From Candidatus Moraniibacteriota bacterium (GTDB lineage: Bacteria; Patescibacteriota; Minisyncoccia; Moranbacterales; UBA9337), in assembly GCA_028695135.1 (NCBI GenBank), contig JAQVJM010000002.1, positions 14,249 through 78,248 on the forward strand: DNA of 64,000 nt, given 5' to 3'. Made by a program: the position numbers and the translations under genes. A model generated the notes under the pieces. That model did no database searches. It saw nothing but the letters and a program-made list of their open reading frames with translations, and was not told where the DNA came from. Of this stretch, positions 30,242-52,771 are shown piece after piece; the first letter of the stretch is position 1; each line of letters opens with the position of its first letter.

Positions 30242-31765
30242 ATGAGCAAATATAGCGCTACAATCGGGATGGAAATACATGTTGAGCTCAAGACCGAGTC
30301 CAAGATGTTTTGCAAATGCAAGAACGGGATGGGGGCGGAAAAGGAGCCGAATAAGAATATCTGCGAAGTTTGCACCGCTCATCCGGGGACTCTTCCTGTG
30401 CCTAATGAAAAAGCCGTTAGATTTGTCCAACTTGCAGGAATGGCGCTCAATTGTGAATTGCGAAAGGAGTCGAAATTTGACAGAAAGAATTATTTTTATC
30501 CGGATATTCCGAAGGGTTATCAGATTTCCCAGTACGACCAACCTCTATGCCAAAACGGAGTTTTGGAAATTCGAAATTCAAAATCCGAAATCCTAAACAA
30601 TAATCAAATTCAAAATTCAAATATTCAAACTAAAAAGATAGGTATTACTAGGATTCATCTTGAAGAAGATACCGGTAAGCTAACTCATCCCAAAGGAACT
30701 GGCTATTCTTTAGTAGACTTTAACCGTGCCGGTGTTCCGCTTATGGAGCTTGTGACCGAACCGGATTTTGAGAGCGGGGAGGAGGCCAGAATATTTTGCC
30801 AGAAGCTCCAGCAGATCTGCCGCTATATCGGCATAAGCGATGCCGATATGGAAAAAGGGCATATGCGTTGCGAGGCCAACATTTCTCTTCATAAAGAAGG
30901 CGAGGATAAGTTGAGCGGGACAAAAGTCGAAGTCAAGAATATAAATTCATTCAAATTTGTAGAAAAAGCGATCAATTACGAGATAGAGCGCCAGGCGGAA
31001 GCTTTGGACAAAGGCGAAAAAATTGTCCAGGAAACCAGAGGCTGGGATGCGAATCGGAACGCGACGATTTCTCAGCGAACCAAGGAGACCGCGGCCGATT
31101 ACAGATATTTCCCCGAGCCGGATATCCCGCCGATGAAATTCAGTGATGGCTATATTGAAAAATTAAAAAGGAATCTTCCCGAGCTTCCGGATCAAAAAAT
31201 CAAGAGATTCATGGAACAATATGGGATTTCCCAGGAAAATGCGGAGCTTCTTACGATGGAAAAGGGCTTGGCTGATTATTTTGAAAAAACCATAAGCGAG
31301 ATAGCAGAGAAAAGAGATGCGGGAGAAATTAAGGCCGAGGAAGAGAAGCTGATAAAGCTGGTTGCAAATTATATAAATACTGAATTGAGAAAGTATCTTT
31401 TTGAAAGCCAGGAAAAGATAGAAAGCATCAAAATTACTCCGGAAAATTACGCTGAGCTCATCGGAATTGTGGCGGATGGAAAAATTAATTCCAGCGCCGC
31501 CCAGACAGTTCTCAAAGAGATGTATGAAACCGGAGGGGATCCGTCCCAAATTATTGAAGAAAAGAATTTGGCGCAAATGGAAGATGATGGAGAAATGGAA
31601 AATATTATTGATAAAATCTTAGTGGATAACCAGTCTTCTGTTGATGATTACAAGTCAGGAAAAGAAAATGCTTTGAAGTTCTTGATGGGGCAAGTTATGA
31701 AAGAGACACAAGGAAAAGCCAATCCGCAAAAGGCGATGGAGATGATAAGGGAAAAATTGAAATAG
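30242..31765 (+). CDS. gatB: Asp/Glu-tRNA amidotransferase subunit B, with a ~20-aa low-complexity in-frame insertion
   Basis: YSATIGMEIHVELKTESKMFCKC, IGITRIHLEEDTGKL, C-terminal GatB/YqeY domain; insertion NSKSEILNNNQIQNSNIQT encoded by 30565-30630. Confidence 0.9.
   Translation: MSKYSATIGMEIHVELKTESKMFCKCKNGMGAEKEPNKNICEVCTAHPGTLPVPNEKAVRFVQLAGMALNCELRKESKFDRKNYFYPDIPKGYQISQYDQPLCQNGVLEIRNSKSEILNNNQIQNSNIQTKKIGITRIHLEEDTGKLTHPKGTGYSLVDFNRAGVPLMELVTEPDFESGEEARIFCQKLQQICRYIGISDADMEKGHMRCEANISLHKEGEDKLSGTKVEVKNINSFKFVEKAINYEIERQAEALDKGEKIVQETRGWDANRNATISQRTKETAADYRYFPEPDIPPMKFSDGYIEKLKRNLPELPDQKIKRFMEQYGISQENAELLTMEKGLADYFEKTISEIAEKRDAGEIKAEEEKLIKLVANYINTELRKYLFESQEKIESIKITPENYAELIGIVADGKINSSAAQTVLKEMYETGGDPSQIIEEKNLAQMEDDGEMENIIDKILVDNQSSVDDYKSGKENALKFLMGQVMKETQGKANPQKAMEMIREKLK
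30565..30630 (+). repeat. Copy of the AT-rich rRNA IVS repeat family embedded in frame in gatB
   Basis: AAAATCCGAAATCCTAAACAAT is 22/22 identical to 23S IVS1 (35898-35919); continued similarity (CAAATTCAAAATTCAAATATT) to IVS3. Confidence 0.7.
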
Positions 31766-31875: not shown

Positions 31876-32112
31876 TTACATAAAATGCTTTCTTATGAAT
31901 GCCCTGCCCGAACCTGATTTTAGATATTTTTCGAATTCAAAAGCTTTGTATTTACCAGAAAAAGATGTATAGCACATCAATTTCACTGGCAATCTACCCT
32001 TAGTTGAATCAATATATCCCTTTCCATGTCTTTCAATCCTATCTTTCAAATCATTAGTACAACCTGTGTATAGATTGCCATCAGAACATACTAATATGTA
32101 AACATAGAACAT
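31876..32112 (-). CDS. GIY-YIG nuclease-domain small protein (UPF0213/YhbQ-like)
   Basis: MFYVYILVCSDGNLYTGCTNDLKDRIERHGKG...GRLPVKLMCYTSF; start moved to the internal ATG because the upstream part of the ORF overlaps tRNA-Ser. Confidence 0.7.
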   Translation of the reverse strand: MFYVYILVCSDGNLYTGCTNDLKDRIERHGKGYIDSTKGRLPVKLMCYTSFSGKYKAFEFEKYLKSGSGRAFIRKHFM

Positions 32113-32185: not shown

Positions 32186-32272
32186 CGGAGAGAGAGGGAT
32201 TCGAACCCCCGGTACCCTTTCGGGCACAACGGTTTTCAAGACCGTCGCATTCGACCACTCTGCCATCTCTCC
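32186..32272 (-). tRNA. tRNA-Ser (anticodon UGA), class II with long variable arm
   Basis: Minus-strand GGAGAGA TG GCAG AGTGGTCGAAT GC.. ACGGT CTTGAAA ACCGT TGTGCCCGAAAGGGTACC GGGGG TTCGAAT CCCTC TCTCTCC G. Confidence 0.8.
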
Positions 32273-35176: not shown

Positions 35177-35880
35177 GTATGAGCGTTCAAGATTTTTATT
35201 ATGATGTAATTTTTTAAAGATAATAAATTACTTGAAAAGACAACAAAACAAATCTAAATACAAAAGCGGGTGAATTTTTTTACAGCTATTTTTTAGTTGT
35301 CAAGAGATTGCTCGCCATTAAGGCGAGTTTTTTATTTGGTCCTGCGGATGGCGGAATTATGCGGAAGTCTGGACAAAATAATGTAAAATAGGAGTTGTGC
35401 CGAAATACTTTTTTGTGAATATTTCATGAAAAAATATTTCCGCGCAAATCCGGTAAGAATGATCCGGATGAAGCGAACCTTAAAAATTTAATATTGACCT
35501 ATTGAGTAGCTTTGATCCAGATCAAGCAATTGCGGAAAATCTGATCGGGGCCAAGAAATAGGCGTAGGTAAATCCTGCCGCTTTATCGGCGGCGGGAAAC
35601 AAAGCAATTGCAGTTGACGATCTTAAATGATTGTTAACTGTTAACTTTACCCCGTGTAATCCAGCTTTGCTGGTCTCGCTTGCGAGAATTTCACGGGGTG
35701 AATCCTGCCGCTTTCGAGCGGTGGGAAAAACAACAAAAAGGTTACTTAAGCGTATGGTGGATGCCTAGACTCGTGTGAGCGATGAAGGACGTAGCAGATT
35801 GCGATAAGCCTCGGGGAGCTGTCAAGCAAGCTTTGATCCGGGGATTTCCGAATGGGGAAACCCAGCCGTACATAGCACAG

Positions 35881-36012
35881 AAAATCCGAAATTTAAAATC
35901 CGAAATCCTAAACAATTTTAAAGTCCAAATAATTTAAATTTAAAAACTTTTTAAATTTAGAATTTGGAAAATTTTAATTTATTTAGAAATTGATGCTTTG
36001 AATTTCGAATTT
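35881..36012 (+). repeat. 23S intervening sequence IVS1 (AT-rich hairpin element family) in the helix 9/10 hairpin loop
   Basis: Interrupts the loop of stem CCGTACATAGCACAG/CCGTGTTGTGTGCGG; begins AAAATCCGAAATTTAAAATCCGAAATCCTAAACAAT, ends ...GAATTTCGAATTTC; internally self-complementary. Confidence 0.7.
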
Positions 36013-36382
36013 CCGTGTTGTGTGCGGTTACTATTATCTGAATTCATAGGATAATGGAGCAAACCCAGTGAACTGAAACATCTTAGTAGCTGGAGGAATA
36101 GAAATCAATAGAGATTCCGCAAGTAGTGGCGAGCGAACGCGGAACAGTCTAAAACTCGTCGCCCTCGGGCGACGGGTGGTTGCGAGATAATTGTACTCGT
36201 TTAATCGGGATTGCCTCATATTTTTTAGCAGAACGTTCTGGAAAGAACGGCCAAAGGAAGTAATAGCCTTGTATGCGAAAAAAAATATGAAGCGATGAAA
36301 TTATTCTCAAGTAAGGCGGGACCGGAGAAATCCCGTCTGAATCCGGGAGCACTAACTTCCAAGACTAAATATTACACGAGAT

Positions 36383-36419
<37 letters not shown>

Positions 36420-36492
36420 CATCCCGATAAGGGAGATGAAATAGTATCTGAAACCATATGTTAACAAGGAGTCAGAGCCGTACGTAGTACGG

Positions 36493-36623
36493 AAATCCGA
36501 ATATTAAAATCCGAAATCCGAAACAATATCAAAATTCGAATTGCAAAAATTCAAAAAAATTTTGAATTTAGAATTTTGAAAATTATGATTTGTTTAGAAT
36601 TTCGTGTTTAGAGTTTAGAATTT
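36493..36623 (+). repeat. 23S intervening sequence IVS2 (same family) in the helix 25 loop
   Basis: Interrupts stem GCCGTACGTAGTACGG/CCGCACTGCGCACGGC; begins AAATCCGAATATTAAAATCCGAAATCCGAAACAAT. Confidence 0.7.
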
Positions 36624-37817
36624 CCGCACTGCGCACGGCGATGGCGTGCTTTTTGCAGAACGAGCCAACGAGTTAGTTTTATACGGCTTGCATAAATTAC
36701 TCTGTAAGATATGCATAGTGAAAGCGAGGCTTAACCGCCGATTTTGTCGTATGGACTAGACCCGAATCCAGGCGAGCTACGCATGGGCAGGGCGAACCCC
36801 GAGTAACATCGGGGGGAGGCCCGCACCCACTGATCGTTCGACATCAGGGGATGACCTGTGCGTAGGGGAGAAATTCCAATCGAGCTTGGCTATAGCTGGT
36901 TCTCTCCGAAATAGCTTTGGGGCTAGCGTTCGTTAAATGAGCGCGGGAGGTAGAGCTACTGGATGAGTGTTCGCGGTTCGCCGTAGAACACTCAACCAAA
37001 CTCCGAATTCTTGCGTTTCTTATTCGAGCAGTCAGAAATCCGGCTCTAAGGTCGGATCTCAAAAGGGAAAAAGCCCAGACCATAATCTAAGGTCCCTAAA
37101 TTCATATTAAGTGGCAAAGGAAGTAGAGTTTCTTAAACACCTAGTAGGTTGGCTTAGAAGCAGCCATCCTTTAAAGAGTGCGTAATAGCTCACTAGCTTA
37201 GAGACTTTGCGCCGAAGATGTAACGGGGCTAAATATGATACCGAAGATATGGACCTGTCGCTCTCGAGCGACGGGTGGTAGGAGAGCGTTCTCTGTGAGC
37301 CGAAGCCAAAGGCGTGAGCCATGGTGGATCGCAGAGAAGTGAGAATGTTGGCATGAGTAACCGCAATGTGAGTGAGATCCTCACACCCCGAAAGTTCAAG
37401 GTTTCCTGGGCAATGGCAATCATCCCAGGGTTAGTCGGTCCTAAGGCGAGGCTGAAAGGCGTAGTCGATGGACATACGGTTAATATTCCGTGACTATGAT
37501 TACAATCGATGGAGTGACGCATTTTAGTAACTGTCGCATGTTATTGGATTCATGTAGGTTTTCTGAGGATGTATAGCAGGCAAATCCGTTATACATTAAG
37601 TCCAAGGAAAATCTGGACGCTTCTCTTCGGAGGAGCTAACGACAGCCAGCAGAGTGCCAGGAAAAACTTCTAAGATTATTGTTTTCATATCCGTACCGCA
37701 AACCGACACAGGTGAACAGGGCGAGTAGCCTAAGGGGAACGGGAGAACCTTCGCTAAGGAACTCGGCAAAAAATCTAGACGTAAGTTCGCGAGATGTCTT
37801 GCCAGTGCTTAGCACTA

Positions 37818-37938
37818 AAAATTCGAAATCCGAATATCGAAATCCGAAACAATATCAAAATTCAAATAATTAAGGGCCGTTTTGAATTTAAAAAATTTGA
37901 AAATTATAATTTGTTTTGAGTTTCGTATTTTGATATTC
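37818..37938 (+). repeat. 23S intervening sequence IVS3 (same family) in a domain IV variable helix (helix 63 region)
   Basis: Begins AAAATTCGAAATCCGAATATCGAAATCCGAAACAATATCAAAATTCAAAT; ends ...TTTTGAGTTTCGTATTTTGATATT. Confidence 0.65.
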
Positions 37939-38123
37939 GTGCTTTTGGTGCTATGCATTGGCCGCAGCTAAAGATTCCAAGCGACTGTTTATCAAAAACA
38001 CAGGTCTCTGCAAACCCGTAAGGGGATGTATAGGGGCTGACGCCTGACCAGTGCTGGAACGTTAACGGGAGCGGTGCAAGCCAATCCCCGAAGCGCCAGT
38101 GAACGTCGGCGATAACTATAATC

Positions 38124-38155
<32 letters not shown>

Positions 38156-38384
38156 ATTCCGACCCGCATCAAAGGCGTAACGACTTGGAAACTGTCTCAG
38201 TGAAGGACCCGGTGAAATTGCAATAACGGTAAAGATGCCGTTTACCTACGGCAAGACGAGAAGACCCCGTGGAGCTTTACTACAACTTGGCATTGAATTA
38301 AGATTCTGGCTGCCGAGAATAGGTGGGAGACTTTGAAACCGCGATCCAGGTCGCGGTGGAGTCGCCAGTGGAATACCACCCTGT

Positions 38385-38525
38385 CATTATTTTAATTCTA
38401 ACCCTGTGCTGTTAAGAGTTTGGTAGAAAGTATAAAGTAGCAAGTATAAAGTATGGCAAACCACAATATATATCTTAGTGTCTGAACATAATACATACTA
38501 CATAATACTTCCTGCTTGATTCTTA
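38385..38525 (+). other. ~90-nt expansion in the 23S helix 79 region containing (AAGTATAAAGTA)x2
   Basis: About 140 nt where E. coli has ~50 nt between GAAATACCACCC and CAGTGTCTGGTGGGTAGTTTGA. Confidence 0.45.
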
Positions 38526-38742
38526 CCAGCACGGGAACAGTGCCTGGTGGGTAGTTTGAGTGGGGCGCTCGCCTCCTAAATGGTAACGGAGGCGCTTACA
38601 AAGGTTGGCTAAGTCCGGATGGAAATCGGACTGATAGTACAAAAGCATAAGCCAGCTTTACTGAAAGACTAATAAGTCGCTCAGTTACGAAAGTAGAATT
38701 TAGTGAACCGACCATCGCTTGTAGGAGCGTGGAAGATCATCA

Positions 38743-38774
<32 letters not shown>

Positions 38775-38907
38775 AGTGCCCAAGAGTTCATATCGACGGC
38801 ACTGTTTGGCACCTCGATGTCGGCTCATCTCATCCTGGGGCTGGAGCAGGTCCCAAGGGTTTGGCTGTTCGCCAATTAAAGAGGTACGCGAGCTGGGTTC
38901 AAACCGT

Positions 38908-39166
38908 AAAATGGCTTTTTAGCTTTTAGAAAAAGGAAATTTTACAGTTTGAATCCGAGGTTATAGACATCACATCATGGCGGCTTTTGTTAGCAATAAC
39001 AAAAGAGAAGCTAACTAATATCGGTAGAATCCTAGCGAGTAATCGCGGACAATACCGAGGGAATTTGTCTAATTTGACAAAGCCCGTAGAGACTAGACGT
39101 TAGCCTCCATAATTATTTGTGGATGAAGTTATAGTCCAATGCACGCAGTAATGCGTGAAAAACATG
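38908..39166 (+). other. 259-nt ORF-less group-I-intron-like insertion at the classic 23S homing site (between ...AACCGT and CGTGAGACAG, E. coli ~2593)
   Basis: Exon junction matches E. coli GAACGT|CGTGAGACAG; 5' exon ends in U, insert ends in G; core-like elements AGAGACTAGAC (R-like) and AAGTTATAGTCC (S-like, cf. AAGAUAUAGUCC). Confidence 0.55.
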
Positions 39167-39572
39167 CGTGAGACAGGTTGGTCTCTATCTGCCGTAGGCG
39201 TTATTACTTGAGAGGATTCTTTCCTAGTACGAGAGGACCGGAAAGAGCGAACCTCTGGTGCATCGGCTGTTCCGCCAGGAGCAATGTCGAGTAGCTATGT
39301 TCGTAAGGGATAACCGTTGAAAGCATCTAAACGGGAAGCCTACCTCAAGATAAGGTAATTTATGTTTTCCTAGAAGAAGACTAGGTTGATAGGCTCTAGG
39401 TGTAAGCGTAGTGATACGTTTAGCCGAGGAGTACTAATAAACTAAAACCTTTTTTTGTTTTTGCTTAGTGGCATACTATAGTAGCCATTAGGAAAAAAGT
39501 TAACAGTTAACAGCCATTTATATACATCTGGCTGGAGCTTTTTAAAACCTACAATTTTTTTGAATATATGAT

Positions 39573-45912: not shown

Positions 45913-46097
45913 AAAATATTTTGCTCTTCAAAAAATGGGAGTCTTCGAATCATCGACAGACTCCTTTTTAAATTTATTGAAAAATGCTAGAATGACATAG
46001 AGTATGGAGCACATAGCACATAGCATGGAGTATAAAGCGTTGCGAGTTACACGCCATAGATTATATATTGCACGCTACGCGTTATGTGATACTAGAT

Positions 46098-46931
46098 ATG
46101 CGATTTGATATAATCACAATTTTTCCAAATATTTTTGATTCATATTTCAGCGAGTCGATTTTAGCGCGGGCGCAGAAAGAAAAGTTGGTCGTAATCAACG
46201 TGCATAATTTGAGAGATTACGCCCGGGATAAGCATAAGACTGTCGATGATACTCCGTATGGCGGAGGAGCGGGGATGGTGATGAAAGTGGAACCGATTTT
46301 TAATTGCGTGGAAACAATTAAAAATGTTCTAGATGTTGAAAATGTTGCAAGTGTTGAAGATGAAACAATACAACGAGCAAAGCGATTTAACAAGCAAGGC
46401 GATGGAACATTTAGAACAATATTGTTTTCTGCTAAGGGAAAAAAATATACGCAGGAAGATGCCAAGCGTTTTTTGAATTATGATAATATAATTATGATAT
46501 GCGGGCGGTATGAAGGGGTGGACGAACGGGTGGCCGAGCATATAGCGGACGAAGAAATTTCGATAGGAGATTATGTCCTGACCGGAGGAGAAATTCCGGC
46601 GATGGCAGTTGTCGATTCGGTCACAAGGCTTCTTCCGGGAGTATTAGGAAATCCGGAGTCCCTTGATCAAGAGAGCTTTAATGATGTTCAAGTTGTTATA
46701 GATGTTCAAGGTGTTGAAAATGTTCAAGATGTTAAAAATGAATCAATTCAACAAGCGAAGCAATATGACAAGCGAAGCAATATGACAAGCGAAGCGATGA
46801 AGAATTTGGAATATCCCCAGTATACCAAACCGGAAGAATTCAATGGTTGGAAGGTGCCGGAAGTCCTCCTTAGCGGGAACCATGCGGAGATTGAGAAATG
46901 GAGGGAAAAAACAATGACAAGGCATAAGTGA
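46098..46931 (+). CDS. trmD: tRNA (guanine37-N1)-methyltransferase TrmD carrying two repetitive in-frame insertions
   Basis: [67 protein letters not shown]; insertions at ~46325-46370 and ~46684-46800 built from GATGTT/GTTGAAAATGTT and 17-nt tandem repeats. Confidence 0.85.
46751..46799 (+). repeat. 17-nt tandem repeat (ACAAGCGAAGCAATATG x2.9) inside trmD
   Basis: Direct reading of 46751-46799. Confidence 0.7.
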
Positions 46932-51508: not shown

Positions 51509-52771
51509 ATGAGTAATATAAAAGAAATTAAGGCTAGGGAGATTTTGGATTCCCGGGGTAATCCGACCGTGGAAGTCGAAGTAATTTTGGAAGACGGCAG
51601 TGCAGGCGTGGCGGCGATCCCGTCCGGGGCATCGACCGGATCGCATGAGGCGCTGGAGCTTCGAGACGGGGACGGCGGACGTTATGGAGGAAAAGGAGTG
51701 CTTAAAGCCGTGGAAAATGTCAAAACTAAGATTTCCGAGGCGGTTATCGGAATGGAAGCTGCCAATCAAGAAGAAATTGATAAGAAAATGATCGGACTTG
51801 ACGGTACGGAAAACAAATCCAATCTGGGAGCCAACGCTATTTTGGGAGTATCTCTGGCGGTTTGCCGGGCGGCAGCCGAAAGCAAAGGCAAAGAGCTTTA
51901 TGAATACATTGGTGAAAAATTCAAAATTCAAAATTCAAAATTCAAAATTCCATATCCGATGTTTAATATTATTAACGGAGGAGAGCATGCCGATAACGGG
52001 CTTTGCATCCAGGAATTTAAGCTGGTTCCGAGGGGGATTGAGGGATATCCCGAGCAATTAAGGGCGGGAAGCGAAATTTTTCACGCTCTTGAAAAAATAC
52101 TTTCATCCAGGGGACTTAGCACGGCGGTCGGCGATGAGGGAGGATTTGCGCCAAAAATGGAAAGCAATTCCCAAACGCTTGAAACCATAAACCAAGCCAT
52201 AGAAGAAGCCGGATATAAGCCGGGAAATGAAGTTTTCGTAGCACTGGACGCGGCGGCCAATTCATTTTATGAAACGGAAAGCGGACAATATATGCTAAAA
52301 CCGGAAAACGAAAAAATAAACAAAGAAAATCTTATAAATCTCTATAAAGAATGGATAGAAAAATACAATGTAATTTCGGTCGAGGACGGACTCCATGAGG
52401 AGGATTGGGAGGGGTGGAGAATGATGAATGAAAAACTCGGGGAGGGAATAATGAATATCGGAGACGACCTCTTGGTTACCAATGTAAAAAGATTGGAAAA
52501 AGCGATCGAAGAGAAAGCTTGTAATAGTGTCCTGATAAAAGTCAATCAGATCGGAACTCTGACTGAAACTATCGAGTGTATAAAGTTGGCCAAAAAAAAT
52601 GATATGAAAACAGTTATTTCTCACAGAAGCGGAGAAACTACTGACGATTTCATTTCCGATCTGGCTGTCGGGATGATGGCCGATTATATGAAAAGCGGAT
52701 CGCTTTCAAGGGGTGAAAGGATTTGCAAATATAATAGATTGCTTAAGATAAACGAAATTTTAGCTTCTTAG
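51509..52771 (+). CDS. eno: Enolase, with a short in-frame insertion encoded by a heptanucleotide tandem repeat
   Basis: IKAREILDSRGNPTVEVEV, SGASTGSHEALELRDGD, NIINGGEHADN, IKVNQIGTLTET; insertion KFKIQNSKFKI. Confidence 0.9.
   Translation: MSNIKEIKAREILDSRGNPTVEVEVILEDGSAGVAAIPSGASTGSHEALELRDGDGGRYGGKGVLKAVENVKTKISEAVIGMEAANQEEIDKKMIGLDGTENKSNLGANAILGVSLAVCRAAAESKGKELYEYIGEKFKIQNSKFKIPYPMFNIINGGEHADNGLCIQEFKLVPRGIEGYPEQLRAGSEIFHALEKILSSRGLSTAVGDEGGFAPKMESNSQTLETINQAIEEAGYKPGNEVFVALDAAANSFYETESGQYMLKPENEKINKENLINLYKEWIEKYNVISVEDGLHEEDWEGWRMMNEKLGEGIMNIGDDLLVTNVKRLEKAIEEKACNSVLIKVNQIGTLTETIECIKLAKKNDMKTVISHRSGETTDDFISDLAVGMMADYMKSGSLSRGERICKYNRLLKINEILAS
51916..51950 (+). repeat. (AAAATTC)x5 heptanucleotide tandem repeat inside eno
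   Basis: Direct reading; related to the CAAAATTCAAAT motifs of the rRNA IVS family. Confidence 0.8.

What the first reader, a model, noticed from the sequence alone, without database searches (positions are those of the whole stretch)
30565..30630. A segment of the rRNA IVS repeat is inserted in frame inside gatB, giving a 20-aa low-complexity loop
gatB nucleotides 30577-30598 (AAAATCCGAAATCCTAAACAAT) are 22/22 identical to the 5' arm of 23S IVS1, and the following CAAATTCAAAATTCAAATATT continues the family consensus seen in IVS3. The insert encodes NSKSEILNNNQIQNSNIQT between the conserved GatB blocks ...QNGVLEI and KKIGITRIHLEED, where GatB homologs have only ~6-8 residues. The same selfish repeat therefore appears to have colonised both an rRNA gene and an essential protein-coding gene while keeping the reading frame. 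This is an unusual case of a repeat element tolerated as a protein insertion.
Basis: seen in the sequence. Interest (0 to 1): 0.75.

Follow-up and report, generated by a model that had tools for sequence, protein, structure and literature searches.

The report
rRNA-type repeat arm inside GatB
One arm of a hairpin repeat that also expands this bacterium's 23S rRNA sits in frame in the essential gatB gene and adds a floppy 18-residue surface loop. The same repeat family occurs in many bacterial phyla and recurs inside housekeeping proteins of CPR bacteria.

Summary
gatB (30242-31765, a Candidatus Moranbacteria genome) carries 54 extra bases (30578-31631 is wrong; correct span 30578-30631). Its 63-nt core (30565-30627) matches the A-rich 5' arms of three hairpin insertions in the same genome's 23S rRNA: 22/22 exact at 30580-30601, about 81% over 65 nt.

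The repeat is not private to this genome. It belongs to a cross-phylum family of 130-200-nt hairpins built from degenerate heptamers (AAATCCN). In some genomes the hairpin encloses a PF05635 '23S rRNA intervening sequence protein' gene.

The gatB copy is a single arm with no partner and no predicted RNA structure. It lies at the tip of a beta-hairpin and is modelled as a disordered loop.

Homologous inserts occupy the same site in many Moranbacteria GatBs, interleaved with insert-less close relatives. Their synonymous sites are far more conserved than in the rest of the gene. So this is an old, shared insert, kept alike by recombination or by a constraint on the DNA or RNA sequence. It is not a fresh jump from the rRNA.

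Arm copies also sit inside the reading frames of LeuRS, SecA and transketolase in other CPR genomes.

Closest precedent: Rickettsia palindromic elements. I rate it a new variant of a known kind.

The parts
30242..31765 (+). gatB (Asp/Glu-tRNA amidotransferase subunit B), 507 aa, intact ORF
   Evidence: ORF. 100% match to a protein named GatB of Candidatus Moranbacteria, with PF02934 and PF02637. PDB GatB matches at E 4e-144. The AF2 model matches GatB structures at TM 0.74-0.86.
30565..30627 (+). A-rich arm of the heptamer-hairpin repeat family, about 9 degenerate AAATYCN units. It overlaps the Glu-Ile codons that precede the insert.
   Evidence: nhmmer profile built from 123 arms of other genomes: model positions 1-63 of 72, 36.4 bits, E 2.3e-10. 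The 20-nt core of that profile is circular, so the flanks were scored alone at fixed register: 15.7 bits upstream (0 of ~126,700 null positions reach it) and 10.5 bits downstream (50 of ~126,700). TRF reports period 7, 9.3 copies.
30578..30631 (+). The 54 nt (residues 113-130, SKSEILNNNQIQNSNIQT) that are absent from the empty-site relatives L002 and L204
   Evidence: Codon alignment. In the AF2 model residues 112-129 have low pLDDT (<50 at 118-126) and lie between strands 103-111 and 130-142.
30580..30601 (+). 22-nt stretch identical to 23S IVS1 35895-35916
35876..36017 (+). 23S rRNA insertion IVS1: a hairpin of the same family, at LSU model position ~139
   Evidence: 5' arm E 9e-9; MFE -28.7 kcal/mol, z -3.9
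36485..36631 (+). 23S rRNA insertion IVS2: a hairpin of the same family, at LSU model position ~583
   Evidence: 5' arm E 2.7e-11; 3' arm on the minus strand E 1e-3; MFE -33.0 kcal/mol, z -4.2
37813..37950 (+). 23S rRNA insertion IVS3: a hairpin of the same family, at LSU model position ~1765
   Evidence: E 7e-7; z -3.3
35735..39456 (+). 23S rRNA gene that hosts the three hairpins (context)
   Evidence: Rfam RF02541, 2452 bits

Best explanation
The gatB segment is a single A-rich arm of a widespread hairpin repeat family built from degenerate heptamers (AAATCCN). Complete copies of this family form three intervening-sequence-type hairpins in this genome's 23S rRNA. In other bacteria complete copies lie between genes or enclose a PF05635 ('23S rRNA intervening sequence protein') gene.

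In gatB the arm lies in frame at the tip of a beta-hairpin of the N-terminal cradle domain. It is translated into about 18 extra hydrophilic residues (N/Q/S/K/I) that form a disordered surface loop, and the enzyme tolerates it.

Inference: only a one-armed copy is compatible with an essential mRNA. A full hairpin would create a long double-stranded RNA, a likely RNase III substrate, and its T-rich arm would encode a hydrophobic, Phe-rich peptide.

The insert is not a fresh transposition from the rRNA. It is homologous to inserts at the same site in many Moranbacteria GatBs. Its patchy distribution and unusually conserved synonymous sites indicate one of two things: spread or loss by homologous recombination through the conserved flanking gatB blocks, or maintenance at the nucleotide level.

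Shown: family membership, in-frame insertion at a hairpin tip, absence of a partner arm, shared orthologous inserts, patchiness, synonymous conservation. Inferred: translation and tolerance, the reason for one-armedness, recombinational spread.
For: Sequence identity to the 23S hairpins.

Family membership: a profile from other genomes' arms hits gatB 30565-30627. The non-circular flank test gives 15.7 and 10.5 bits, p < 1e-5 and about 4e-4.

These loci come from Planctomycetota, Desulfobacterota, Patescibacteria, Verrucomicrobiota and others, with locus GC 0.32-0.67. Most are complete hairpins, with the complementary arm 20-130 nt downstream. The variable seventh base covaries with its partner, 79% paired versus 53% expected. 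In four loci the arms lie about 400-450 nt apart around one ORF; two of the four ORFs were tested and match PF05635 at E 4e-16 and 2e-11.

One arm only: no complementary arm is found in or near gatB, and the region has no RNA structure, z -0.5.

Loop location: PDB alignment and AF2.

Empty sites: the closest relatives L002 and L204 lack the insert.

Homologous inserts: L001, L203 and L205 each carry a 54-nt insert; its 3' half is 29-30/32 identical to the window's.

Patchiness: 18 heptamer-type, 47 empty and 55 other loops among the best 120 GatBs. P0001, P0007 and P0008 are each closer to insert-less GatBs than to any other insert-bearing one in 1000/1000 bootstraps.

Synonymous conservation: identical codons at identical residues make up 71-92% in the insert and 64-91% in the 12 upstream codons, against 43-48% in the rest of the gene. 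Fisher p for the insert is 0.001-0.08 per pair.

Precedent for tolerance: arm copies lie in frame in LeuRS (L046), transketolase (L004) and SecA (L070) of other CPR genomes.
Against: No transcript or peptide data, so translation of the insert is inferred from the intact frame only.

The profile's 20-nt core is circular, because the pattern came from this window. The downstream flank score is only moderate.

The 3' half of the insert is specific to gatB and only weakly family-like (at most 25/32 to any arm). A composite origin cannot be excluded.

Distant GatBs carry perfect tandem heptamers at the same tip (L144, L148, L149), which fits local slippage as well as insertion.

A full hairpin does survive in frame in one LeuRS (L046). 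This weakens the argument that only one arm is tolerable.

The flank sites that group insert-bearing genes are partly non-synonymous (VLEI versus KLKI). They could reflect structural co-adaptation rather than co-transfer.

The trees are distance-based only.
Confidence: 0.7

Rival explanations
1. Local origin by replication slippage. The codons for Leu-Glu-Ile (TTG GAA ATY) seeded a GAAATYC heptamer that expanded in place. Its resemblance to the rRNA hairpin arms is then convergence between cryptically simple sequences shaped by the same slippage bias.
For: Period-7 structure of the insert. Perfect (GAAATCC)x4, (AAAATCA)x4 and (GAAATTAGAAACTC)x2 arrays at the same hairpin tip in the distant GatBs L144, L148 and L149. 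A perfect (AAAATTC)x5 array inside this genome's enolase. The arm begins inside the pre-existing GAAAT of the Glu-Ile codons.
Against: The match runs past the pure repeats into the family's non-periodic signature (…AAACAA + downstream), with flanks significant at fixed register. Insert length is constant at 54 nt in all four sequenced genes, with no copy-number variation. Changes of one heptamer would shift the frame of an essential gene. The same arm consensus is conserved across phyla whatever the genome GC, and the two arms change in a compensating way. Slippage alone does not predict that.
Confidence: 0.1
2. Recent intragenomic event. The gatB segment was copied, by transposition or gene conversion, from this genome's own 23S IVS1/IVS2.
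For: 22/22 exact identity with IVS1, and the same G-A-G-T series at the variable seventh positions. The first half is 33/37 identical to IVS1, above the 95th percentile (32) of arms from other genomes. Relatives' gatB inserts use the 'C' heptamer type, whereas the window's insert and its IVSs use the 'G' type.
Against: Orthologous 54-nt inserts exist at the same site in L001, L203 and L205 and in at least 18 of 120 GatB homologs. The first half is 31/37 identical to those, barely less than the 33/37 to IVS1. One unrelated arm reaches 34/37, and 4 of 127 share an exact match of 22 nt or more. The second half matches other gatB inserts (29-30/32), not the IVSs (21-22/32). At most a short conversion tract in the 5' half is compatible with these data.
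Confidence: 0.1
3. The insert is kept for a function. Either it is a protein loop contacting a partner of the transamidosome, or it is an RNA element: the A-rich arm in gatB mRNA is complementary to the T-rich 3' arms of the rRNA hairpins and could pair with them or with excised IVS RNA.
For: Conservation of the insert peptide and of its synonymous sites across GatBs that are only 70-78% identical overall. The predicted duplex of the gatB insert with the IVS2 3' arm is -46.8 kcal/mol. Shuffled inserts give -16.4 +/- 3.6, and IVS2's own 5' arm gives -34.6.
Against: Closest relatives do without the insert, so it is dispensable. The loop is predicted disordered. The IVS arms should pair within their own molecule as they are transcribed. 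There is no expression data. Other CPR lineages carry unrelated GC-rich palindromes at the same tip, which suggests a permissive site rather than a specific function.
Confidence: 0.07

Closest known systems
Rickettsia palindromic elements (RPEs)
   Same: A dispersed repeat family found between genes, in frame inside protein-coding genes with the ORF kept, and also in a structural RNA gene. [quoted passage not shown] The host is also a small-genome, host-dependent bacterial lineage.
   Different: RPEs insert as whole palindromes, whereas the gatB copy is one arm only. The present family is heptamer-built, spans many phyla, is linked to a PF05635 gene, and forms rRNA intervening sequences. Sequence homology to RPEs was not tested and is not expected.
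23S rRNA intervening sequences carrying the PF05635 / 'S23p' ORF (Leptospira and Coxiella type; also reported in CPR rRNA insertions)
   Same: Long-stem insertions at 23S helix tips. In other genomes the same arm family encloses a PF05635 ORF. CPR rRNA insertions encoding 23S_rRNA_IVP, and short RNase III-type IVSs, are described in 10.1101/2024.02.27.582315.
   Different: That literature treats IVSs as rRNA features. A conserved heptamer arm shared across phyla, many non-rRNA copies (only 2 of 120 loci are in 23S) and in-frame copies in proteins were not found in any paper searched. Excision by RNase III is not testable here.
REP / MITE-type extragenic hairpin repeats (REP-RAYT, Correia, ERIC)
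   Same: Short non-autonomous hairpin repeats dispersed in bacterial genomes.
   Different: No transposase, terminal tetranucleotide tag or target-site duplication was identified. The element is built of heptamers. No Rfam family matches it.
Cryptically simple rRNA expansion segments that co-evolve by slippage (Hancock and Dover; from my own knowledge, not checked here)
   Same: Several insertions in one rRNA share the same simple motifs, and similar motifs occur elsewhere in the genome, including in coding regions.
   Different: Here the arms keep a specific consensus across phyla and covary as a hairpin, which indicates a discrete element rather than mutational bias alone.
PARCELs (palindromic amphipathic repeat coding elements; PMC2996958, seen)
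   Same: Palindromic repeat DNA that is translated inside proteins and is distributed horizontally.
   Different: PARCELs form tandem repeat domains of surface proteins. This element is a single insert in housekeeping enzymes and rRNA. I read only that paper's title and abstract.

Membership tests
Heptamer-hairpin repeat family (23S IVS-type, PF05635-associated; unnamed) | A-rich arm matching the family consensus (gaAAATcCgAAataCgAAATCCGAAATCCGAAACAAATtCaAA...) | tested here: met
   nhmmer, model positions 1-63, E 2.3e-10. Flank-only PWM test: 15.7 and 10.5 bits.
Heptamer-hairpin repeat family (23S IVS-type, PF05635-associated; unnamed) | Complementary T-rich arm downstream, forming a long hairpin | tested here: not met
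   No partner arm in gatB and fold z -0.5. The feature is met by IVS1-3 and by most loci elsewhere. The gatB copy is therefore a half element.
Heptamer-hairpin repeat family (23S IVS-type, PF05635-associated; unnamed) | PF05635 ORF in the hairpin loop (present in a minority of copies) | tested here: not met
   No such ORF in gatB or in the window's IVSs, whose loops are short. Arms about 400-450 nt apart around one ORF in L032, L043, L078 and L110; the L032 and L043 ORFs match PF05635.
Rickettsia palindromic elements (as a kind: in-frame palindromic repeat insertions) | Member of a dispersed repeat family inserted in frame with the host ORF preserved | tested here: met
Rickettsia palindromic elements (as a kind: in-frame palindromic repeat insertions) | The inserted unit is itself palindromic | tested here: not met
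   One arm only
Rickettsia palindromic elements (as a kind: in-frame palindromic repeat insertions) | Insertion at a surface-exposed position that does not disturb the fold | tested here: inconclusive
   Tip of the hairpin formed by strands 103-111 and 130-142, with low pLDDT. The rest of the model matches GatB structures. Contacts with GatA, GatC or tRNA could not be computed.
Rickettsia palindromic elements (as a kind: in-frame palindromic repeat insertions) | Sequence homology to RPE-1 to RPE-8 | not tested
   No RPE sequences were compared. The taxon and the sequence composition differ.
RNase III-excised 23S rRNA intervening sequence (applies to IVS1-3, not to gatB) | Extended stem inserted at an rRNA helix tip | tested here: met
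RNase III-excised 23S rRNA intervening sequence (applies to IVS1-3, not to gatB) | Excision from the transcript, giving fragmented 23S rRNA | not testable with these tools
   Needs RNA-end mapping
Slippage-generated tandem repeat (microsatellite-like) | Near-perfect tandem units and copy-number variation among relatives | tested here: not met
   74% matches with 11% indels over 9.3 units. Length is 54 nt in all four genes. By contrast L144 and L148 do show perfect arrays.
Intein or intron | Splicing motifs, a catalytic RNA fold, or an adequate size | tested here: not met
   54 nt, no Rfam match, no structure

The most novel reading that the evidence does not exclude
The heptamer hairpin is a mobile cassette that crosses phyla. 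Its stem is cut by RNase III, and some copies carry a PF05635 gene. In CPR bacteria its single arms are repeatedly captured in frame at loop tips of essential proteins. The gatB copy is not inert: it co-evolves with the genome's rRNA hairpins, either through short-tract conversion or because gatB mRNA pairs with the complementary IVS 3' arms. This would make one repeat family part of both the ribosome's RNA and a tRNA-charging enzyme. It would also explain the insert's conserved synonymous sites and its homing-like, patchy spread among gatB alleles.
Probability: 0.15. Interest if true: 0.85.

Novelty: new variant of a known kind. Interest (0 to 1): 0.7.

Why it matters
In-frame colonisation of proteins by palindromic repeats has essentially one textbook case, the Rickettsia RPEs. 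This finding shows a second, unrelated system in CPR bacteria, a huge radiation of small-genome organisms, and ties it to the long-unexplained 23S rRNA intervening sequences and their PF05635 gene.

It identifies a conserved hairpin family shared by very distant phyla that is absent from Rfam and from the papers searched.

It identifies a hot spot for in-frame insertions in an essential enzyme, the tip of one GatB beta-hairpin. The heptamer arm, perfect heptamer arrays and GC-rich palindromes all land there.

The one site also has natural filled and empty alleles. These make questions about how such elements spread (recombination versus transposition) and whether they are neutral directly testable.

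On the practical side, such arms can create spurious ORFs and misleading low-complexity regions in CPR protein annotation.

Tried and rejected
- **Rfam.** Gathering-threshold scans of the window and of 18 loci with hairpins found no family covering the hairpin.
- **Literature.** Searches for the DNA motif, the encoded peptides (RNPKSE, FRISDF and others), CPR rRNA insertions, PF05635 and CPR palindromic insertions found no description.
- **Partner arm in gatB.** Searched for and not found.
- **Intein, intron or structured RNA.** Rejected on size, lack of fold and lack of an Rfam hit.
- **Assembly chimera.** Rejected: the identical protein occurs on 4 independent contigs, and homologous inserts occur in other assemblies.
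- **The 22/22 identity as proof of a direct IVS1-to-gatB transfer.** Rejected after comparison with 127 arms from unrelated genomes.
- **nhmmer E-value taken at face value.** The profile core is circular, so it was replaced by a flank-only test.
- **Hairpin copies near gatB in relatives.** A scan of 82 gatB loci found only L144 (inside gatB) and L198, so the relatives' own hairpin repertoires could not be examined.
- **Database search with the 49-aa loop peptide.** It returned nothing usable; the query was too short for the word index.
- **SecA as a clean example of an insertion.** Ambiguous, because T. maritima SecA also has extra sequence at that spot.
- **Enolase (AAAATTC)x5 array.** It matches the arm profile only weakly (E 1.5), so it is listed as a side observation and not as a family member.
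Full report
**Observation.**
The window is from a Candidatus Moranbacteria (CPR/Patescibacteria) genome, GC 40%. gatB is the 507-aa ORF 30242-31765.

It recurs exactly at 35895-35916 and with one mismatch at 36506-36527, where shuffles expect 0.01 matches. The next 21-mer matches 37850-37870 with 3 mismatches.

The similarity is longer than reported. gatB 30565-30629 aligns without gaps to 36491-36555 at 81.5% (E 7.5e-14) and to 35882-35948 at 80.6%.

These three targets are 135-150-nt insertions at helix tips of the 23S rRNA gene (35735-39456), at Rfam LSU model positions ~139, ~583 and ~1765. Each folds as a long imperfect hairpin, z -3.3 to -4.2. The gatB match is to their 5' arms.

**What the repeat is.**
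The arms are runs of degenerate heptamers (AAATCCG/AAAATTC). By record title, about 42 loci are Planctomycetota, about 24 CPR and about 21 Desulfobacterota or Myxococcota. The rest include Verrucomicrobiota, Omnitrophota, Elusimicrobia, Chloroflexi, Nitrospirota and others, with locus GC 0.32-0.67.

- Nearly all loci share extended flanks: aaatYcgaagcacg-AAATCCGAAATCCGAAACAA-attcRaatgaccaaaattcaaatgaccaaaac.
- In most loci the reverse-complement arm lies 20-130 nt downstream, giving 130-200-nt hairpins.
- The variable seventh base is usually the same in both core heptamers of an element (78 of 94). It pairs with its partner in the other arm in 79% of cases, against 53% expected.
- Only two of the 120 loci are in 23S rRNA.
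- In L032, L043, L078 and L110 the arms are about 400-450 nt apart around one ORF. The two tested ORFs (L032, L043) match PF05635, '23S rRNA intervening sequence protein' (E 4e-16 and 2e-11).
- No Rfam family covers the hairpin, and no paper in the library mentions the motif or its peptides.
- A recent survey of CPR rRNA insertions notes short IVS-type insertions and 23S_rRNA_IVP ORFs, but reports no shared repeat and no link to protein genes (10.1101/2024.02.27.582315).

**Is the gatB segment a member?**
A profile built only from arms of other genomes hits gatB 30565-30627 over model positions 1-63 of 72 (E 2.3e-10), second only to IVS2. The 20-nt core of that profile is circular, because the scan pattern came from this window. 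I therefore scored the flanks alone at fixed register:

- The 16 nt upstream score 15.7 bits. None of ~126,700 null positions in the window reaches that.
- The 36 nt downstream score 10.5 bits. Fifty of ~126,700 null positions reach it, and 26 of 6,949 A-rich ones.

So gatB carries essentially a full A-rich arm. It has no complementary arm, and the region has no predicted structure, z -0.5.

**Where it sits in the protein.**
Relative to T. maritima GatB (3AL0_B) there are 14 extra residues between GFLEIDGDE and GRKKVRIRRLHLEED. Relative to the closest relatives (..KLKING-KEIGITRIH..) there are 18, corresponding to nt 30578-30631.

In an AF2 model (mean pLDDT 81.7; TM 0.74-0.86 to solved GatBs) strands 103-111 and 130-142 form a hairpin. 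The insert, residues 112-129, is its low-confidence tip. All invariant GatB residues are intact.

**Distribution among GatBs.**
Among the best 120 homologs (67-82% identity), 47 have the minimal 1-3-residue turn. Eighteen have a same-sized heptamer-type insert (for example PNPKSQILNNNQIQNSNIKT), and 55 have other loops.

Filled and empty genes are interleaved. P0001 (this gene), P0007 and P0008 are each closer to insert-less GatBs than to any other insert-bearing one in 1000/1000 bootstraps, with the loop and its flanks excluded. L002 and L204 share the gene order Tmk-MazG-GatB with the window and are empty sites.

DNA of three filled relatives (L001, L203, L205) shows a 54-nt insert at the same position.

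The inserts are much more alike than the genes around them:

- Third-position identity is 72-89% in the insert and 44-47% in the rest of the gene.
- Identical codons at identical residues make up 71-92% in the insert and 64-91% in the 12 upstream codons, against 43-48% elsewhere. Fisher p for the insert is 0.001-0.08 per pair. The difference persists when only N/Q/K/I/S/T codons are compared.
- Quartet-informative sites within 30 nt of the insert group the window with filled genes 7-8 to 0-1, while the rest of the gene is star-like. Several of those sites are non-synonymous, so this point is weaker.

**Relation to this genome's own rRNA hairpins.**
The 5' half of the insert is 33/37 identical to IVS1 and shares its G-A-G-T series at the variable positions. 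The relatives' inserts use the C type.

This is only suggestive. The orthologous inserts are 31/37 identical, one unrelated arm reaches 34/37, and 4 of 127 unrelated arms share an exact match of 22 nt or more.

The 3' half (…AATAATCAAATTCAAAATTCAAATATTCAAACT) is 29-30/32 identical to other gatB inserts, but at most 25/32 to any arm and 21-22/32 to the IVSs.

Hence the insert is an old gatB feature of family origin. At most its 5' half has been converted by a local copy.

**Mechanism.**
Shown: a single family arm, in frame, at a hairpin tip, with empty alleles in close relatives.

Inferred:
1. It is translated as a disordered hydrophilic loop and is tolerated.
2. One-armed copies are what survives in an essential mRNA. 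A full hairpin would be a long dsRNA, the known substrate of RNase III in classical IVSs, and the T-rich arm encodes Phe-rich peptides. In all eight CPR-type ORFs examined that carry arm copies, the sense strand carries the A-rich arm. One LeuRS does keep a full hairpin in frame.
3. The patchy distribution and the 'young' synonymous sites are best explained by recombination through the highly conserved blocks on either side (…YFYPDIPKGYQISQYDQP… and …ITRIHLEEDTGK…). The alternative is nucleotide-level maintenance.

The arm begins inside the Glu-Ile codons (GAAAT). This gives microhomology that may make the site a hot spot. The same tip carries perfect heptamer arrays in L144, L148 and L149 and unrelated GC-rich palindromes in L129, L187 and several other homologs.

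**Rivals.**
- Pure slippage with convergence (0.10).
- A recent copy from the genome's own IVS (0.10).
- A selected function, as a protein loop or as an RNA partner of the IVS 3' arms (0.07). The predicted duplex with the IVS2 3' arm is -46.8 kcal/mol, better than IVS2's own arms at -34.6.

**Comparison and novelty.**
The closest precedent is the Rickettsia palindromic elements. R. bellii has 526 copies, 53 of them in protein genes and one in tmRNA (PMC1458961).

The kind of phenomenon is the same: a dispersed repeat translated inside proteins and also present in a structural RNA. This case differs in four ways:
- The element is unrelated and built of heptamers.
- It spans many phyla and is tied to 23S IVSs and PF05635.
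- The protein copy is a half element.
- Alleles with and without it coexist among close relatives, with signs of recombination.

I rate it a new variant of a known kind.

Arm copies inside the ORFs of LeuRS (L046, four arm-like stretches), transketolase (L004) and SecA (L070) show that gatB is not an isolated case.

**Limits.**
- There are no expression data.
- Only four filled and two empty gatB DNA sequences from near relatives were available.
- The trees are distance-based.
- The rest of the source genome was not available.

Noticed in passing
window 51916-51950 (enolase ORF 51509-52771): A perfect (AAAATTC)x5 heptamer array lies inside enolase (Pfam PF03952/PF00113). It encodes KFKIQNSKFKI, a 5-residue insertion versus PDB enolase 9no2 at the linker between the N- and C-terminal domains. 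It matches the arm profile only weakly (E 1.5).
   Followed up: partly
window 46299-46403 and 46670-46800 (trmD ORF 46068-46931): TrmD (PF01746, matched in 2 stretches) carries two in-frame repeat inserts that are 72% identical over 105 nt (E 1e-16). They are built of GATGTTSAA 9-mers plus a perfect 17-nt repeat, ACAAGCGAAGCAATATG x2.6. This is a second repeat family inside an essential gene of this genome.
   Followed up: partly
L046 (LeuRS), L004 (transketolase), L070 (SecA), L003, L067, L083, L054: Arms of the same hairpin family lie in frame inside housekeeping or large proteins of other CPR-type genomes. One LeuRS has four arm-like stretches, one of them a complete hairpin (…NSKSKIPNSKQSQNSNDKNSKSFENLNFKNSDLFRIWNLEF…).
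   Followed up: partly
L032, L043, L078, L110: In these loci the hairpin arms are about 400-450 nt apart around one ORF. The L032 and L043 ORFs match the four-helix-bundle family PF05635 (23S rRNA intervening sequence protein). This suggests a cassette of stem plus ORF, of which the short hairpins would be ORF-less derivatives.
   Followed up: partly
L144 4848-4879; L148 and L149 (gatB loop): Distant GatBs carry perfect tandem heptamers at the same hairpin tip, with a different unit in each genome: (GAAATCC)x4, (AAAATCA)x4 and (GAAATTAGAAACTC)x2. Loop length is normal. This indicates homogenisation of the units within each array.
   Followed up: partly
L129, L187, L125; proteins P0071, P0079, P0095, P0096, P0117, P0048, P0051, P0068: Unrelated GC-rich palindromes are translated in frame at the same GatB hairpin tip. 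Examples are CACCTCGAG-AAA-CTCGAGGTG, read as SPRETRGETS, and a 51-aa insert with at least 3 nested hairpins. Some are nested inside the heptamer arm. The site is a general insertion hot spot.
   Followed up: no
L207, L208, L212, L214, L215, L219, L220, L223, L224 (IMG/VR contigs): The arm motif occurs in 19 contigs classed as viral. About 11 of them show the family flanks or a full hairpin, so they are possible vectors, or else prophage regions or misclassified contigs.
   Followed up: partly
window ~31876-32112 (- strand), just downstream of gatB: A small GIY-YIG domain protein (PF01541, E 8e-14), next to a tRNA gene at 32186-32272. No link to the insert was established.
   Followed up: no
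window 38961-39158; whole window: The 23S rRNA also contains a group I intron (RF00028, 54 bits). The 23S and 5S genes have no 16S gene anywhere in the 64 kb, so the rRNA genes appear unlinked.
   Followed up: no
window 30560-30640 versus 36557-36632: The gatB insert is predicted to pair with the 3' arm of IVS2 at -46.8 kcal/mol. That is stronger than IVS2's own 5' arm (-34.6) and far below shuffled controls (-16.4 +/- 3.6).
   Followed up: partly
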